From Candidatus Diapherotrites archaeon CG11_big_fil_rev_8_21_14_0_20_37_9 (lineage in GTDB: Archaea > Iainarchaeota > Iainarchaeia > Iainarchaeales > Iainarchaeaceae): DNA of 31,430 nt. The notes beneath the pieces are model-generated. The model did not search any database, had not been told where the DNA came from, and saw only the letters and a program-made list of their open reading frames with translations. The stretch covers positions 1-31,430 of the forward strand of contig PCWY01000022.1 in NCBI GenBank assembly GCA_002762975.1, written 5' to 3'. This document shows, piece by piece, positions 7,389 through 23,934 of this stretch. Positions within the stretch are counted from its first letter, which is position 1. Every line of letters begins with the position of its first letter. A program made the position numbers and the translations under genes.

Positions 7389-7457
7389 ATGAATTTTAAT
7401 GCAAGAATAAGGAAATTAGGCATTTTGCTTGTCCTTGTACTTGTATTGCTAGCTTAA
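7389..7457 (+). CDS. Putative Leu/Val/Ile-sensing leader peptide MNFNARIRKLGILLVLVLVLLA
   Basis: 22 codons with 7 Leu, 3 Val and 2 Ile; 11 of the last 13 are branched-chain. Lies directly upstream of leuA-ilvB-ilvN-ilvC-leuB. Confidence 0.8.
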   Translation: MNFNARIRKLGILLVLVLVLLA

Positions 7458-7530
7458 GCACCCGCAAAAATTTTCGACTTCTGCGGGGTGCGATTCCAAA
7501 AACACAGAAGTCTTTATAGTAAAGAAGGAG
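7458..7530 (+). promoter_or_regulatory. Attenuator-like alternative hairpins of the leu/ilv leader
   Basis: gcacccgca (7458-7466) with tgcggggtgc (7482-7491) excludes gacttctg (7476-7483) with cagaagtc (7505-7512), which is followed by ttta and then aaggag (7525-7530). Confidence 0.65.
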
Positions 7531-7558
7531 AAATGAAAAAAAAAGAAAAGTGAATTTA

Positions 7559-14841: not shown

Positions 14842-14856
14842 ATTTAACAAAAACCT

Positions 14857-14864
14857 TTTATATT
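14857..14864 (+). promoter_or_regulatory. Putative TATA box of the pheA leader transcript
   Basis: TTTTATAT preceded by A-rich BRE-like caaaaacc; starts 29 nt before ATG 14886. Confidence 0.6.
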
Positions 14865-14885: not shown

Positions 14886-14978
14886 ATGTTATACGCTACA
14901 ATTGCAAAGAATGATTCAGCTGTTTCAAAAGTAGCTTCGGCATTTGCTTTTTATTTCTATTTCTTTTTCTTTAAATAA
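14886..14978 (+). CDS. Putative Phe/Tyr-sensing leader peptide MLYATIAKNDSAVSKVASAFAFYFYFFFFK
   Basis: 30 codons ending FAFYFYFFFFK (7 Phe and 3 Tyr in total), 102 nt upstream of pheA. Confidence 0.8.
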   Translation: MLYATIAKNDSAVSKVASAFAFYFYFFFFK

Positions 14979-14979
14979 C

Positions 14980-15029
14980 ACCCTTTCTGACCTTTGGCAA
15001 GAAGGATTGGGTTTCCAAAAAGTTTTTTT
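14980..15029 (+). promoter_or_regulatory. Attenuator-like hairpins and T7 tract after the Phe/Tyr leader
   Basis: Imperfect stem accc/gggt plus tttct/agaag (14980-15012) competes with ttgg-gttt-ccaa (15007-15018). T7 at 15023-15029. Confidence 0.5.
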
Positions 15030-15080
15030 AAGTTAAATTAAATTAGGGTTGAAAATAAATTTTGAAAATTGGTGAGGTTT

Positions 15081-16148
15081 ATGAGTTTGGAGAAAACAAG
15101 AAAAAAAATTGATGAAGTTGATGATGAAATAGTTGATTTATTGAATAAGCGCCTTGAACTCGCTATTGATGTTGGCAAAGAAAAAAAAGAACACAGCGAA
15201 ATTGTTTATGATCCTGTAAGGGAAGAACAGATAATTGAAAAGCTTGCAAAAAAAAGCAAGGGTTTTCCAAAAGAGGGCATTGAGTCAGTATTCAGAGAAA
15301 TTTTTAGTGTTTCAAGAAAGGCACAGTCCCCTATAAAGATTGCTTACCTTGGGCCTGAAACAACATTCACGCATTCAGCTGCATTAAAACAATTTGGTAC
15401 GCAGGCGGAGTATAAATCAAAAGACTCTATTAATGATGTTTTTCTTTCCGTTGAAAAAGGCGAAACCGATTTTGGTGTTGTTCCTGTAGAAAATAGCATG
15501 GAAGGTTCAGTCAATAGAACCTACGATAGGCTCATTACATCGGAACTTAATATTGTTGGTGAAATCTCATTGAAAGTAAACCATAATCTTCTTTCTAAAT
15601 ACAGGTTAAGAGATATCACAAAGATCTACAGTCATCCTATGGCGATTGCTCAATGCAGGGAATGGATTTCGAAGAATTTGCCAAAAGCGGAAATATTTGA
15701 AGTGAGTTCAACTGCGGCAAGTGTTGAAGCAGGCACTTTGTATTTAAATTCTGCTGGCATTGGTTCTGAGCTTGCTGCACAAAAATTTGGTTTGCAGGTT
15801 GTTGAAAAAAATATTCAGGATTTAAGCTCCAATTATACAAGATTCCTTGTGCTTGGCAGGGTGATGCCTAAAAAATCTAGTAAAAGCAAAACAAGTATTG
15901 TTTTTTCGGCAAAGCATGAACCAGGTTCTTTGTTTAATGCACTTGAGCCTCTTAAAAAGCATATGATTAACATGACTAAAATAGAGTCAAGACCGACAAG
16001 GATGAGAAACTGGGAGTATGTGTTCTTTGTTGATTTCCAGGGGTATGTTGAGGATGAAAATGTGGTAAAAGCACTTGGGGAAATGAAGAAAAATACTGCC
16101 CTACTGAAAATACTCGGGTCTTATCCTGAAAAAGCGAGGTTTGAATAA
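15081..16148 (+). CDS. pheA: Bifunctional chorismate mutase / prephenate dehydratase with ACT domain
   Basis: N-terminal R.KIDEVD..IV.LLNKR (AroQ), LGPETTFT, VPVENSMEGSV, NYTRFLVL, INMTKIESRP and LGSY. GGTGAGG RBS precedes ATG 15081. Confidence 0.95.
   Translation: MSLEKTRKKIDEVDDEIVDLLNKRLELAIDVGKEKKEHSEIVYDPVREEQIIEKLAKKSKGFPKEGIESVFREIFSVSRKAQSPIKIAYLGPETTFTHSAALKQFGTQAEYKSKDSINDVFLSVEKGETDFGVVPVENSMEGSVNRTYDRLITSELNIVGEISLKVNHNLLSKYRLRDITKIYSHPMAIAQCREWISKNLPKAEIFEVSSTAASVEAGTLYLNSAGIGSELAAQKFGLQVVEKNIQDLSSNYTRFLVLGRVMPKKSSKSKTSIVFSAKHEPGSLFNALEPLKKHMINMTKIESRPTRMRNWEYVFFVDFQGYVEDENVVKALGEMKKNTALLKILGSYPEKARFE
16128..16148 (+). repeat. Direct repeat copy 1 (pheA 3' end)
   Basis: gaaaaagcgaggtttgaataa, identical to 17138-17158. 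Confidence 0.95.
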
Positions 16149-16260: not shown

Positions 16261-17091
16261 ATGGTTATGGAAGAAACAAATGCATTGGCAATATTTCAAG
16301 GCAAGAAAATAAGGAGAACCATGCATGATAGCGAATGGTGGTTTTCAATCGAGGATATTGTAAAAGCTCTAACTGATTCTCAGGATCCAAAACAATATAT
16401 CAATAAATTGAGAAAAAGGGATGAACCCCTTTCAAAAGGGTGGGTACAATTTGTACATACCCTTCCTGTTTTAACTTCTGGGGGAAAGCAAAAAGTGAAT
16501 TGTTCTAATACTAAAGGTATTTTTAGAATAATCCAGTCAATTCCCTCTCCAAAAGCCGAACCATTCAAACTCTGGCTTGCTAAGGTAGGGTATGAAAGAG
16601 TAGAGGAAATTCAAAATCCTGAACTTGCTCAAAAAAGAATGAAAGAATTGTACAAACAAAAAGGTTATTCTGATGACTGGGTTGAAAAAAGAGTAAGAGG
16701 AATTGCAATTAGGGATGAACTAACTGATGAGTGGAAAAAAAGAGATGTAAAAACAAATAAAGAATATGCTATTCTTACTGCTAAAATTTCAAAAGAAACG
16801 TTCGGCATGACTCCTGGTGAATACAAGAAATTCAAGGGTTTGAAGAACGAAAACCTAAGGGATTATATGGATGATTTAGAACTCATTTTTTCAATGTTTG
16901 GAGAAAGAGTTACAACCGAAATAACCAAAAATCAAGACACCAAAGGGTTTGATGAATGTAAGGGTGCGGCAAAAAAAGGCGGAAAAGTAGCAGGAAATGC
17001 AAGAAAAGATGCTGAAAAACAGATTGGAAAACCAATTTCAAAAAAAGATAATTATAAGCAATTAACGGAAAAAAAGAAACTTAAAAGGTAA
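16261..17091 (+). CDS. Bro-N domain protein (phage antirepressor-like DNA-binding protein)
   Basis: F.GKKIRR....EWWFSI.DIV..LTDS.DP.QY, and GIFRIIQSIPSPKAEPFKLWLA.VG.ER.EEI.NPEL. Confidence 0.85.
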   Translation: MVMEETNALAIFQGKKIRRTMHDSEWWFSIEDIVKALTDSQDPKQYINKLRKRDEPLSKGWVQFVHTLPVLTSGGKQKVNCSNTKGIFRIIQSIPSPKAEPFKLWLAKVGYERVEEIQNPELAQKRMKELYKQKGYSDDWVEKRVRGIAIRDELTDEWKKRDVKTNKEYAILTAKISKETFGMTPGEYKKFKGLKNENLRDYMDDLELIFSMFGERVTTEITKNQDTKGFDECKGAAKKGGKVAGNARKDAEKQIGKPISKKDNYKQLTEKKKLKR

Positions 17092-21971: not shown

Positions 21972-22029
21972 TTTTTGTAAAGGGCAATTATAACTAACAT
22001 TTAAATACTTTAGGTAATGGTATTATTGT

Positions 22030-22077
22030 ATGGCTAGAAGGGATTTACTTTGGCTCAAATCAATTTGTTTTGAGTAG
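22030..22077 (+). other. Candidate leaderless uORF MARRDLLWLKSICFE (one Trp codon)
   Basis: ATG lies 30 nt after the start of TTTAAATA (22000-22007), upstream of tRNA-Trp and trpE. Confidence 0.3.
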
Positions 22078-22165
22078 TCCTAGGAATGCCATAGCAACTA
22101 TTTTTATTAAATTCTACTCTATTTACGCATGGCACTGGCTTTAAGCCACTGCATTGTAACTGATT

Positions 22166-22238
22166 GGGGATATAGCATAACCTGGTAGTGTACCTGGCTC
22201 CAGACCAGAGGATGGGGGTTCAAATCCCTCTGTCCCCA
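22166..22238 (+). tRNA. tRNA-Trp (anticodon CCA), intron-less, CCA tail not encoded
   Basis: Acceptor ggggata/tgtcccc plus discriminator A, D-arm gcat/gtgt, anticodon arm ctgg-ct-CCA-ga-ccag (CCA at 22200-22202), T-arm ggggg-ttcaaat-ccctc. Confidence 0.93.
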
Positions 22239-22240
22239 CA

Positions 22241-22275
22241 TCTTTTTATTTCTCTTAAAAAGAGAAAGGAAAAAG
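22241..22275 (+). promoter_or_regulatory. T-rich tract after the tRNA, able to pair into a long hairpin
   Basis: cttttt (22242-22247) with aaaaag (22270-22275), and tttctctt (22249-22256) with aagagaaa (22260-22267). Confidence 0.5.
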
Positions 22276-22326
22276 CGGTATCAAAAAGAAAGAGAATCAA
22301 GCATAATTTGTGCTTATAATGAAAAA

Positions 22327-23934
22327 GTGAGTTTATTGGAAGGGCTAAAAGAGCTGAAAAAAGCAAAGAAAGGAAGCATTGTTCCATTATACGAGGAAAT
22401 GTCCACTGAAATGAATGCATTTGATTATTTTAGTAGACTCTCAAATCACGGTGCTTCAAAAAATTCTATTTTACTTGAAAGCGCGGACATAATTACAAAG
22501 TATGGTGAAAAAAGCATTGGTTCTGTTGATCCATGCATTAAAGTAATTGGGCGAAGCGAGAAGTTTGAAATAATTTCTCTTAATTCTTTGGGTGACGAAT
22601 TCCTGAAAAATATTGTTCAGAATTTGCAGTTTTGTTCAGACTTAAAAATTGAAAAGAAAAAAATTTCAGGTACAATAAAAAAATCAAGTGCAATTACCTC
22701 TGAAAATGAAAGGCTTAACTCAAAAACACAGGCAGATATTCTAAGGGCAATTGCATTCAAACTTGTTCCTGTTTACAAACCTTTTCCTGTTTATGGCGGT
22801 CTATTTGGGTGTATTGCGTATGATTTTATTGATCAGTTTGAAACCCTTCCTGAAAACAAAAAAGATGTGCTTAACGAACCTGATTATGAAATGAATTTTT
22901 ATAATAATATTTTTATTTTAGACCATAAAAAGGAAAAAATTACTTTTGTTGCAAACGCCCTTATTTTTGATGAACAGGATAAAGATAAAGAATTAAAACG
23001 CTGCCAGAAAATAATTGATTCTTATAAAAAGGTGTTTTCAAAATCGCCAAATGGAAAAAAAACTAATTATTCAAAAAGAGTTGTTTCAACAGATACAACC
23101 AAAGAAGAATTTGAAGAAACCGTTTCTGAGCTTAAAAAAAATGTTTTTTTAGGGGATGTGTTTCAGGTTGTTCCTTCAAGAACCATAACTTCGACTTTTA
23201 GTTGTGAACCTCTTGACATCTATAATTCATTGAGAAATCTTAATCCAAGTCCTTACATGTTTTTCTTTTCAAATGAAGCAGGAATACTTTTAGGAAGCAG
23301 TCCGGAAACATTCATTAAAGTTTCAGGAGAAAAGAGAAAAAAAATTGAAATCAGACCTATCGCAGGAACCAAACCAAGAGGTTTTGTAAATGGGTTACTT
23401 GATGCAGATCTTGATTCAAGGTTTGAGGCGGAACTGAAAACAGATCAGAAAGAAATTGCCGAGCATACGATGCTAATTGATCTTGCGAGAAATGATGTTG
23501 CAAGAGTTTCAGAAGCAGGAAGCAGGCATTGTGATATGCCATACCGTATAGAAAAATATTCACATGTTCAGCATATTGTAAGCACGGTTTCAGGAACACT
23601 TAAAGCGAATATGGATGCATTACATGCTTACCTTGCATGTATGAACATGGGTACACTTACCGGTGCACCAAAAGTTGAGGCAATGAAACTTATAAGAGTA
23701 CATGAAAAAACACGGCGTGGTTTTTATGGTGGGAGTATTGGTTATCTTACTCCTTCAGGTGAATTTGATTCTGCAATAGTAATCAGAAGCATGACCCTTA
23801 AAGGAAACACCGCTTATATTCGGACAGGCGCGGGAATTGTTTATGATTCTGTTCCTGAGAAGGAATTTTTTGAGACTGAAAAAAAGGCACGGGCGTGTCT
23901 TGAGGCAATTGAAGTTGCGGAGGCAAAAAAATGA
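22327..23934 (+). CDS. trpE: Anthranilate synthase component I
   Basis: LLESAD, NPSPYMF, SSPE, PIAGTKPRG, EHTMLIDLARND, MNMGTLTGAPK and AGAGIVYDS.P..E..ET..K. Confidence 0.95.
   Translation: MSLLEGLKELKKAKKGSIVPLYEEMSTEMNAFDYFSRLSNHGASKNSILLESADIITKYGEKSIGSVDPCIKVIGRSEKFEIISLNSLGDEFLKNIVQNLQFCSDLKIEKKKISGTIKKSSAITSENERLNSKTQADILRAIAFKLVPVYKPFPVYGGLFGCIAYDFIDQFETLPENKKDVLNEPDYEMNFYNNIFILDHKKEKITFVANALIFDEQDKDKELKRCQKIIDSYKKVFSKSPNGKKTNYSKRVVSTDTTKEEFEETVSELKKNVFLGDVFQVVPSRTITSTFSCEPLDIYNSLRNLNPSPYMFFFSNEAGILLGSSPETFIKVSGEKRKKIEIRPIAGTKPRGFVNGLLDADLDSRFEAELKTDQKEIAEHTMLIDLARNDVARVSEAGSRHCDMPYRIEKYSHVQHIVSTVSGTLKANMDALHAYLACMNMGTLTGAPKVEAMKLIRVHEKTRRGFYGGSIGYLTPSGEFDSAIVIRSMTLKGNTAYIRTGAGIVYDSVPEKEFFETEKKARACLEAIEVAEAKK

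What the first reader, a model, noticed from the sequence alone, without database searches (positions are those of the whole stretch)
14945..15029. Phe codons double as an archaeal U-tract signal, followed by a second T7 tract
Seen: the Phe/Tyr codons form a near-continuous pyrimidine run (about 14943-14972). It is followed by an imperfect hairpin (14980-15012), a small competing hairpin (15007-15018) and T7 (15023-15029). The ttcttt of the Phe codons can also pair with aagaag (14999-15004). Established: archaeal termination relies on oligo-U signals and aCPSF1/FttA. Inference: ribosome occupancy of the U-rich codons could directly gate access of the termination factor, a mechanism distinct from bacterial hairpin attenuation.
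Basis: inference. Interest (0 to 1): 0.7.

Follow-up and report, generated by a model that had tools for sequence, protein, structure and literature searches.

The report
Archaeal Phe-leader tail plus T7 tract
The T-rich stretch is the phenylalanine/tyrosine-codon tail of a small conserved "leader peptide" gene in front of an archaeal aromatic amino-acid operon. Relatives keep the hairpin after its stop codon, but nothing shows that the U-rich codons are a termination signal, and the T7 run could be a terminator or a promoter.

Summary
The window lies in a 1.13-Mb archaeal MAG that encodes aCPSF1/FttA and has no sigma-70 match.

The pyrimidine run (14947-14972) is the last ten sense codons (FAFYFYFFFF) of a 30-codon ORF (14886-14978). 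A TATA box sits 29 nt before its ATG, so the mRNA is leaderless. The ORF lies 102 nt upstream of pheA.

I found the same mini-gene in 18 archaeal loci (several are duplicate or near-identical records) and in none of about 90 bacterial pheA loci.

- **Conserved:** the F/Y/W tail and a hairpin starting 0-6 nt after the stop codon.
- **Not conserved:** the U-runs. Trp (TGG) and Tyr codons interrupt them. TTT/TTC usage matches the genome average. The longest T-run is what random synonymous recoding gives. T5 runs are common inside this genome's genes.
- **T7:** an A-run plus T6-T9 is kept in four of the five loci of the nearest clade (T4 in the fifth). Most other relatives have purine-rich spacers with no T6 or longer run. 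The tract also resembles a BRE/TATA at the usual distance for SD-led genes.

Best reading: a ribosome-read aromatic leader. T7 is a possible clade-specific oligo-T attenuator. U-tract gating is unsupported.

This scan has already noted similar archaeal aromatic leaders on other DNA.

The parts
14848..14863 (+). Promoter of the leader: an A-rich BRE-like stretch (CAAAAACC) followed by the TATA box TTTTATAT. The TATA hexamer starts 29 nt before the leader ATG, which implies a leaderless mRNA.
   Evidence: PWM score 9.7, above the median of 104 putative promoters in this genome. TATA hexamers peak at -30 to -26 from ATGs genome-wide. The best hit lies 29-32 nt before the leader ATG in 14 of 18 orthologous loci, and scores 8.9 or more in 11 of them.
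14886..14978 (+). Aromatic leader-peptide ORF of 30 codons: MLYATIAKNDSAVSKVASAFAFYFYFFFFK, then stop.
   Evidence: Orthologous ORFs of 28-41 codons with F/Y/W-rich tails occur in 18 archaeal loci. None occurs in 14 Desulfobacterales loci or about 75 other pheA loci from the metagenome scan.
14943..14972 (+). Sensor codons F20-F29 (TTT GCT TTT TAT TTC TAT TTC TTT TTC TTT). This is the 'pyrimidine run' and holds two T5 runs.
   Evidence: Codon choice and T-run length are as expected from the genome's codon usage. Among the closest relatives the changes are synonymous third-position changes or Phe to Trp.
14980..15012 (+). Post-stop hairpin H1, imperfect: ACCC/GGGU plus UUUCU/AGAAG. Its 5' arm starts 1 nt after the stop codon, inside the footprint of a terminating ribosome.
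   Evidence: -5.7 kcal/mol. A hairpin at the same position, with different stem sequences, occurs in all 18 orthologues.
15007..15018 (+). Small 4-bp hairpin UUGG/CCAA that overlaps the 3' arm of H1.
   Evidence: -2.5 kcal/mol. By my own reading of the sequence, a UUUG/CAAA equivalent exists only in the same-genus relative L085. It is not conserved elsewhere.
15017..15029 (+). A5-G-T7 composite. It is a candidate oligo-T terminator (attenuator) or a BRE/TATA-like element.
   Evidence: An A-run plus T9, T8, T8 or T6 sits at the homologous place in L085, L086, L115 and L089; L088 has only T4. Such composites are rare: 4 in 249 tandem intergenic regions. Promoter PWM score 6.8, 55 nt before the pheA ATG.
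15033..15043 (+). TTAAATTAAAT, a second weakly TATA-like element.
   Evidence: PWM score 5.6, 43 nt before the pheA ATG.
15071..15077 (+). Shine-Dalgarno sequence GGTGAGG of pheA.
   Evidence: SD-like motifs peak at -15 to -11 from ATGs in this genome.
15081..16148 (+). pheA, encoding chorismate mutase, prephenate dehydratase and an ACT domain. It is the first enzyme gene of the controlled operon.
   Evidence: Pfam CM_2, PDT and ACT. In relatives it is followed directly by tktN-tktC or by DAHP synthase.

Best explanation
The stretch is the 3' half of an aromatic leader-peptide gene plus its downstream leader RNA. It heads the pheA-(transketolase)-DAHP synthase operon of a small-genome archaeon.

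**How it probably works**
- Transcription starts at or next to the leader ATG, 29 nt after a TATA box, so the mRNA is leaderless.
- A ribosome reads the roughly 30 codons. When charged Phe, Tyr or Trp tRNA is scarce, it stalls in the F/Y/W tail. Otherwise it runs to the stop codon.
- The hairpin that starts 0-6 nt after the stop can fold only when the ribosome is held back upstream. A terminating ribosome covers its 5' arm. This is the conserved sensor step; it is inferred from geometry and not shown.

**The U-rich look of the codons** is a by-product of Phe and Tyr codons in a 37%-GC genome. It is not a selected signal.

**The output step is open**
- In the window's own clade the best candidate is read-through versus termination at the A-run/T7-T9 tract, which begins 44 nt after the stop codon. 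This could be archaeal oligo-T termination, possibly helped by FttA.
- The same tract could instead, or also, be part of a promoter close to pheA.
- In most other relatives no run of T6 or longer exists, so the family as a whole cannot depend on oligo-T termination.
For: - **Host:** archaeal, with aCPSF1/FttA.
- **Leader ORF:** present in 18 archaeal loci across at least five families of one order, and in none of about 90 bacterial pheA loci.
- **Operon fit:** the tails mix F, Y and W, which suits an operon that also carries transketolase and DAHP synthase.
- **Promoter:** the best TATA hit lies 29-32 nt before the leader ATG in 14 of 18 loci (score 8.9 or more in 11), matching the genome-wide peak for leaderless genes.
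- **Hairpin:** a post-stop hairpin occurs in all 18 loci with different stem sequences. Mean stem score is 16.6 against 10.5 (p = 1e-7), and about 4 standard deviations above shuffles.
- **Co-transcription:** outside the window's clade, most spacers have no promoter-like site (best PWM score 4.3 or below in 9 of 12), so leader and pheA must share a transcript there.
- **U-runs are neutral:** codon usage and longest T-run equal expectation. T5 runs are common in genes and TTTTTT is not avoided.
- **T-runs as terminators:** they are enriched after stop codons, 13.8% against 2.1%.
- **Recurring T-runs in this family:** four of the five loci of the nearest clade keep an A-run plus T6-T9, 10-15 nt after H1. 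L085 has three successive T-runs, and its T9 makes a poor TATA. The distant L105 has a T8 only 19 nt before the start codon, too close to be a TATA.
Against: - There are no transcript data of any kind.
- In the window itself the RNA folds are no better than shuffles, and the two hairpins can coexist.
- No conserved alternative '3:4' hairpin appears when the 5' arm of H1 is masked.
- A run of T6 or longer is present in only 6 of 18 spacers, which is not above background.
- The T7 region scores as a moderate promoter: 6.8, the 25th percentile of promoters. It sits at -55, where TATA hexamers of SD-led genes show a modest peak at -60 to -51.
- In L088 and L089 the element lies 33-36 nt before a start codon that has only a weak SD by my reading, as expected for a promoter.
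- The Leu/Val leader of the same genome has no T-run.
- The relatives are kin, so the statistics overstate.
Confidence: 0.5

Rival explanations
1. The U-rich Phe/Tyr codons are themselves an oligo-U or aCPSF1/FttA recognition signal. A ribosome stalled on them hides it, so termination or cleavage happens only when Phe is plentiful.
For: - aCPSF1/FttA is encoded.
- FttA is reported to favour U-rich nascent RNA (PMC13681488).
- The tail contains two T5 runs, and orthologous tails contain T5-T8 runs.
- The logic resembles E. coli tnaC, where a stalled ribosome blocks Rho loading. That comparison rests on my own knowledge.
Against: - U-runs are exactly what Phe/Tyr codons give with normal codon usage: 49 TTT to 24 TTC against a genome value of 66% TTT, and longest T-runs of 93 against 94.5 +/- 5.5.
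- Their register is not conserved. TGG, TAC, AAT and TCC codons break them, and T/C wobble changes occur among the closest relatives.
- T5 or longer runs occur 3.3 times per kb in sense-strand coding sequence, and TTTTTT for Phe-Phe is not avoided.
- The sister Leu/Val leader has no U-runs.
- A ribosome reaches the codons only after the polymerase has passed them.
Confidence: 0.08
2. The A5-G-T7 tract, together with the TTAAAT repeats after it, is the BRE/TATA promoter of pheA itself. The leader transcript ends or is processed upstream, and T7 is not a regulated terminator.
For: - PWM score 6.8 with an A-rich BRE-like stretch directly upstream.
- The position, -55, lies in the modest TATA peak (-60 to -51) of SD-led genes.
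- In the relatives with only a weak SD (my reading; L088, L089) the element sits at -33 to -36. In the SD-led ones the best site lies at -53 to -72 (-72 in L085), except L115, whose best site is at -37 with the T8-associated site at -53.
- In L088 the run has decayed to TTTTAATTTAAG, which scores 9.9 as a promoter.
Against: - Position 3 of the hexamer is T, whereas 91% of promoters have A there. TTTAAG has a G that is never seen in the training set.
- The L085 T9 is followed by CAACG and scores 5.5.
- Nine of the 12 orthologues outside the clade have no promoter-like site in the spacer, so co-transcription is probably the ancestral state.
- A private promoter would make a conserved cis leader pointless.
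- A score of 6.8 also arises by chance inside the leader ORF, at 14970.
Confidence: 0.27
3. Translational attenuation. Ribosome position on the leader changes RNA folding, which frees or hides the pheA Shine-Dalgarno sequence and start codon. Transcription termination plays no part.
For: - Most orthologues lack any T-run, yet they keep the leader and hairpin.
- In L199 the freed 3' arm of H1 can pair across the start codon.
- The pyrimidine-rich tail is complementary to purine-rich spacer and SD segments.
Against: Partition-function accessibility of the SD/AUG region did not change consistently under three conditions: no ribosome, ribosome at the stop codon, and ribosome stalled. Means were 0.45, 0.46 and 0.45-0.49. 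Accessibility was higher when stalled than at the stop in only 9 of 18 loci.
Confidence: 0.1
4. The leader is a nascent-peptide arrest sensor, like TnaC or the fungal arginine attenuator peptide. It responds to free aromatic amino acid at the stop codon and not to hungry codons.
For: - Leader length is held near 30 residues (28-35 in 16 of 18 loci).
- Non-aromatic positions are conserved within clades, for example SA-x-x-FYFYFWFFK and A-x-YFNSFF-x-x-FW. That is more than a pure codon counter needs.
Against: - The dominant shared feature across clades is the run of 6-9 F/Y/W codons, the hallmark of hungry-codon sensing.
- No sequence is shared across all clades.
- There is no experimental handle.
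Confidence: 0.05

Closest known systems
E. coli pheL-pheA leader-peptide transcription attenuator (Rfam Phe_leader class) and its relatives trpL, leuL and hisL
   Same: - A short ORF packed with the cognate amino-acid codons lies directly upstream of, and co-oriented with, a chorismate mutase-prephenate dehydratase gene.
- An RNA arm begins just after the leader stop codon, where a terminating ribosome would cover it.
   Different: - The host is archaeal, with TATA/BRE promoters and no sigma-70 match.
- The mRNA is leaderless.
- The leader has 30 codons and mixes F, Y and W.
- There is no GC-rich stem directly followed by a U-run.
- No Rfam family matches at the gathering threshold or at E < 0.3.
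- No conserved 3:4 alternative hairpin was found.
- The nearest bacterial PheA relatives (Desulfobacterales, 41-48% identity) have no such leader.
Archaeal oligo(dT) intrinsic termination and FttA/aCPSF1 factor-dependent termination
   Same: - A T7 run lies on the coding strand between the leader and the gene.
- T-runs are enriched after stop codons in this genome.
- FttA is encoded.
- Both mechanisms are described for Archaea (PMC13681488).
   Different: - Neither has been described as being under the control of a translated leader; my literature searches found no such report.
- Here the T-run is clade-specific and preceded by an unusual A-run.
- No 3'-end data exist.
E. coli tnaC-tnaA Rho-dependent attenuation (from my own knowledge)
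   Different: - tnaC senses free Trp through the nascent peptide and induces a catabolic operon.
- Here nothing indicates that the codon tract is a factor-loading site.
Archaeal BRE/TATA promoters of this genome
   Same: An A-rich stretch is followed by a T/A-rich box, with a PWM score of 6.8 at a distance typical for SD-led genes.
   Different: - The core is a pure T-run rather than TTTATA, TTAAAT or TTTAAA.
- It is absent from most orthologous spacers.

Membership tests
Classical leader-peptide transcription attenuator | A short translated ORF enriched in codons for the end-product amino acid | tested here: met
   Nine of the last 11 sense codons are Phe or Tyr. All 18 orthologues have F/Y/W-rich tails, and about 90 bacterial control loci have none. 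Translation itself was not tested.
Classical leader-peptide transcription attenuator | The leader lies directly upstream of, and is co-transcribed with, the cognate biosynthetic operon | tested here: inconclusive
   It lies 102 nt upstream and is co-oriented. Nine of the 12 orthologues outside the window's clade have no promoter-like site in the spacer. The window's own clade has a promoter-like A/T element.
Classical leader-peptide transcription attenuator | Mutually exclusive antiterminator and terminator hairpins | tested here: inconclusive
   The post-stop hairpin H1 is conserved. The overlapping small hairpin has 4 bp, appears only in the same genus, and can coexist with a variant of H1.
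Classical leader-peptide transcription attenuator | An intrinsic terminator: a GC-rich stem followed immediately by a U-run | tested here: not met
   The terminator scan reports nothing at this site. T7 starts 10 nt after H1 and 4 nt after the weak hairpin. Fold z-scores are +0.75 and +1.7.
Archaeal oligo-T intrinsic terminator | A run of five or more T on the non-template strand, downstream of a transcribed unit | tested here: met
   T7 at 15023-15029. T-runs are enriched after stop codons in this genome.
Archaeal oligo-T intrinsic terminator | RNA 3' ends map to the tract | not testable with these tools
   No transcriptome data are available for this MAG.
FttA/aCPSF1-dependent termination | The factor is encoded in the genome | tested here: met
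   TIGR03675 at 839 bits (cut-off 580), a 632-aa open frame on contig C61.
FttA/aCPSF1-dependent termination | Termination at this site depends on the factor and on exposed U-rich RNA | not testable with these tools
   Indirect evidence only: the U-richness of the codon tract is no more than codon usage predicts.
Archaeal BRE/TATA promoter (rival reading of the T7) | A match to the genome's own promoter profile at a working distance from the start codon | tested here: inconclusive
   Score 6.8, the 25th percentile of 104 promoters, at -55. SD-led genes show a modest TATA peak at -60 to -51. An equal score arises by chance inside the leader ORF.
Rfam Phe_leader and other curated RNA families | A covariance-model match | tested here: not met
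   No hit at the gathering threshold. The best E-value hits are unrelated families on the minus strand, all at E >= 0.32.

The most novel reading that the evidence does not exclude
The A-run/T7 tract is a terminator controlled by the ribosome. When aromatic amino acids are plentiful, the ribosome reaches the leader stop codon and the polymerase stops at the oligo-T tract, intrinsically or with FttA. When the ribosome stalls on F/Y/W codons, the post-stop hairpin folds and the polymerase reads through into pheA. This would be leader-peptide attenuation wired to the archaeal termination machinery, which has no hairpin-dependent terminators.
Probability: 0.3. Interest if true: 0.85.

Novelty: new variant of a known kind. 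Interest (0 to 1): 0.55.

Why it matters
Ribosome-mediated attenuation is a textbook bacterial mechanism. I found no report of it in Archaea in the searchable literature.

Archaea couple transcription and translation, but they terminate through oligo-T tracts and FttA rather than hairpin terminators. A working archaeal leader peptide would show how ribosome position is passed on to that machinery.

This locus gives concrete elements for that test:
- a leaderless 30-codon sensor ORF;
- a hairpin abutting the stop codon;
- in one clade, a T7-T9 tract.

The negative result also matters. The U-rich look of Phe codons should not be read as a termination signal here, and T5 runs are tolerated throughout this genome's genes.

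Tried and rejected
- **RNAalifold on all 16 sequences:** I replaced it with per-sequence stem scoring against shuffles and natural post-stop regions.
- **SD sequestration:** no consistent change in SD/AUG accessibility under ribosome masks.
- **A conserved 3:4 alternative hairpin:** none appears when the 5' arm of H1 is masked.
- **Metagenome scan with a PheA profile:** only one new leader locus, L115. The other loci it returned showed no such leader.
- **Placing A-run/T-run composites by genomic context:** uninformative, because my gene proxies are crude and the composite is rare in convergent, divergent and tandem spacers alike.
- **Shared motif TTCCAAAAA:** it follows H1 in both the Phe and the Leu leader, but the 9-mer occurs 146 times in the genome. 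I treat it as probably chance.
- **A second mini-ORF coupled to the pheA start:** not consistent across orthologues.
- **Tandem-repeat search in the purine-rich L090 spacer:** nothing found.
- **Rfam with permissive thresholds:** nothing relevant.
- **Desulfobacterales pheA loci (nearest bacterial relatives):** no aromatic leader, so the leader did not arrive together with a transferred gene.

Full report
**Setting**

The window is contig C66 of a 1.13-Mb, 87-contig, 85%-complete genome. It encodes a full-length aCPSF1/FttA (TIGR03675, 839 bits against a cut-off of 580). I found no sigma-70 region-2 match.

The 196 genomes of its order that were searched are all listed at 1.5 Mb or smaller among those whose sizes were shown. 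Close relatives are deposited only as 'uncultured archaeon'. Earlier notes from this scan call it DPANN; I did not verify that.

The window is an amino-acid biosynthesis cluster. On the + strand after 14841 it carries pheA (chorismate mutase, prephenate dehydratase, ACT domain), a Bro-N gene, a split transketolase, DAHP synthase, a His_Phos-family gene, gdh, tRNA-Trp, the trp genes (trpE, G, D, a fused C-F, B, A), aroA and aroK.

**Checking the observation**

- The pyrimidine run is codons 20-29 (F A F Y F Y F F F F) of a 30-codon ORF, 14886-14978. It has 24 pyrimidines in 26 nt at 14947-14972 and two T5 runs.
- The imperfect hairpin 14980-15012 is worth -5.7 kcal/mol. The small hairpin 15007-15018 is worth -2.5 kcal/mol and shares two G residues with it.
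- T7 is at 15023-15029.
- The codon tract can pair with the purine-rich segment 14999-15022 (-9.8 kcal/mol).

Taken alone, none of this exceeds chance.

- Fold energies are no better than shuffles (z = +1.7 and +0.75).
- The post-stop stem is at the 75th percentile of natural post-stop regions.
- The minimum-energy fold lets a variant of H1 and the small hairpin coexist.
- A run of T7 or longer is found in 8-14% of comparable 60-nt spacers.
- The terminator scan reports nothing here. No Rfam family matches.

**What relatives show**

I collected pheA loci from four searches. Eighteen archaeal loci from at least five families of the order carry a 28-41-codon ORF upstream of pheA. Its tail is rich in Phe, Tyr and Trp, for example FYFYFWFFK, YFNSFFYFFW, FYFYFYFFSW, FQYFWYFFQ and FYYFW.

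Several of these loci are the same record or near-identical records fetched by different routes (L004 and L085; L005, L086 and L114; the window itself is L084).

None of 14 Desulfobacterales loci has such an ORF, although these are the nearest non-archaeal PheA relatives at 41-48% identity. Nor do about 75 other loci from the metagenome scan.

The leader appears where pheA is not closely preceded by another gene. Where pheA closely follows a gene such as transaldolase or ilvC, the leader is absent.

Downstream of pheA the relatives have tktN-tktC or DAHP synthase directly. A sensor that counts all three aromatic amino acids therefore makes sense.

**The leader has its own promoter**

This genome shows a sharp peak of TATA hexamers at -30 to -26 from ATGs, meaning many of its mRNAs are leaderless.

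A profile built from those promoters scores 9.7 at 14857, 29 nt before the leader ATG. The best hit lies 29-32 nt before the leader ATG in 14 of 18 orthologues, and it scores 8.9 or more in 11 of them.

**The conserved RNA element is the hairpin that abuts the stop codon**

In all 18 loci a stem starts 0-6 nt after the stop. In most, the loop is 11-17 nt. Stem sequences differ while complementarity is kept, for example GGCTC/GAGCC, GCCCC/GGGGC, ACACCC/GGGTGT and GGGCTCTCC/GGAGAGCC.

- Mean stem score is 16.6, against 10.5 +/- 4.7 for 440 natural post-stop regions (Mann-Whitney p = 1e-7).
- The summed score is 252, against 191 +/- 15 in shuffles.

Kin are not independent, so these numbers overstate. 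The window's own hairpin is one of the weakest.

The geometry matches 'region 2' of bacterial attenuators. A ribosome at the stop codon would cover the 5' arm, and a ribosome stalled some ten codons upstream would not. This step is inferred.

**Are the U-rich codons a signal?**

The evidence says no.

- Among the closest relatives, the only changes in the eight aromatic codons are third-position T/C flips and Phe to Trp (TTT to TGG).
- Across the 16 tails tallied, the run is broken by 15 TGG codons and by TAC, AAT and TCC codons.
- TTT:TTC in the tails is 49:24, which is the genome's own 66%.
- The summed longest T-run is 93, against 94.5 +/- 5.5 when Phe and Tyr codons are redrawn at genomic frequencies.
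- In genes of this genome, T5 or longer runs occur 3.3 times per kb on the sense strand. The Phe-Phe hexamer TTTTTT is not avoided (436 observed, 412 expected).
- The Leu/Val leader in the same window (7389-7457) has no U-runs, and no run of T5 or longer before leuA.
- A ribosome can sense Phe codons only after the polymerase has transcribed them. 3' ends inside the codons could not be gated by that stall in the first round of translation.

**The T7**

T-runs do behave like terminators in this genome. T7 or longer occurs in 13.8% of 60-nt post-stop regions, against 2.1% inside genes, and T6 or longer runs peak in the first 10 nt after the stop.

In the window's clade an A-run followed by a T-run sits 10-15 nt after H1. 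The T-runs are T9, T8, T8 and T6 in L085, L086, L115 and L089, and only T4 in L088. Such composites are rare: 4 in 249 tandem spacers.

- L085 has three T-runs in series, and its T9 is a poor TATA.
- The distant L105 has a T8 only 19 nt before the start codon, which cannot be a TATA.
- L104 has a stem followed by U5.

These points favour an oligo-T attenuator as a recurrent solution.

However, 12 of the 18 spacers have no run of T6 or longer. Many of these are purine-rich and 80-190 nt long, and nine of the 12 spacers outside the window's clade have no promoter-like site either. Leader and pheA are co-transcribed there without any oligo-T.

The T7 region also looks like a promoter.

- The A-run mimics the A-rich BRE, and the profile score is 6.8, the 25th percentile of promoters.
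- Its position, -55, lies where the TATA hexamers of SD-led genes have a modest peak at -60 to -51.
- In the two relatives with only a weak SD by my reading, the element is at -33 and -36.

Against the promoter reading:

- The core hexamer has T where 91% of promoters have A.
- An equal score arises by chance inside the leader ORF.

I cannot settle this from sequence alone.

**Other mechanisms tested**

SD sequestration gave no consistent signal. No conserved alternative hairpin appears when the H1 5' arm is masked.

**Literature**

Full-text searches found leader-peptide attenuation only in bacteria. A 2025 review describes archaeal termination as oligo(dT)-dependent or FttA-dependent, with FttA favouring U-rich RNA. 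It lists attenuation only as a role of bacterial coupling (PMC13681488).

**Earlier notes of this scan**

Similar aromatic leaders have been noted on other archaeal DNA. One is the ...GFYFYFYFFSW leader, which is my locus L087. Another is a Bathyarchaeia case with a hairpin plus U8. I used these as leads only.

**Verdict**

- The underlying object is a conserved archaeal aromatic leader peptide with a stop-abutting hairpin.
- The idea that the Phe codons double as a U-tract termination signal is not supported.
- The T7 is a plausible clade-specific attenuator terminator, with a serious promoter rival.

Noticed in passing
window 22000-22327: A TATA-like TTTAAA at 22000 lies 30 nt before a 15-codon ORF (22030-22077, MARRDLLWLKSICFE, one Trp codon). 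After it come tRNA-Trp(CCA) at 22166-22239 and then trpE at 22327. This may be a third leaderless mini-ORF heading an amino-acid operon. The sequence was read directly; the tRNA is.
   Followed up: no
window 16261-17091: The Bro-N domain gene between pheA and tktN is peculiar to this genome. In the 18 relatives whose fetched locus holds tktN, it follows pheA without an intervening gene.
   Followed up: partly
window 7533-7553: After the Leu/Val leader hairpins, a strong SD (AAGAAGGAG) leads into a 6-codon ORF (MKKKEK). Its TGA overlaps the GTG at 7550 that opens the leuA frame (GTGA). This looks like a translational-coupling arrangement.
   Followed up: no
window 7494-7502 and 15013-15021: The same 9-mer, TTCCAAAAA, follows the post-stop hairpin in both the Leu and the Phe leader. 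In each case it lies 56-59 nt before the first enzyme gene. The 9-mer occurs 146 times in the genome, so this may be chance.
   Followed up: partly
L090:148-339, L092:1309-1500, L096:2560-2684 (minus strand): In one genus the spacer between leader and pheA is 125-192 nt long, strongly purine-rich and almost free of T-runs. By eye, it carries a shared motif of the form AGRCAGG..UAAGUGG just after the hairpin. Its function is unknown, and no tandem repeat was found.
   Followed up: partly
L006-L019: The nearest non-archaeal relatives of this PheA are Desulfobacterales/Desulfobacteraceae proteins at 41-48% identity. This suggests an old transfer of the bifunctional gene. None of them has an aromatic leader ORF.
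   Followed up: partly
L085 and L089, 20 nt before the pheA start: Both loci have a 7-codon ORF that begins ATG GTT A and whose TGA overlaps the pheA ATG (ATGA). The window and the other orthologues lack it.
   Followed up: partly
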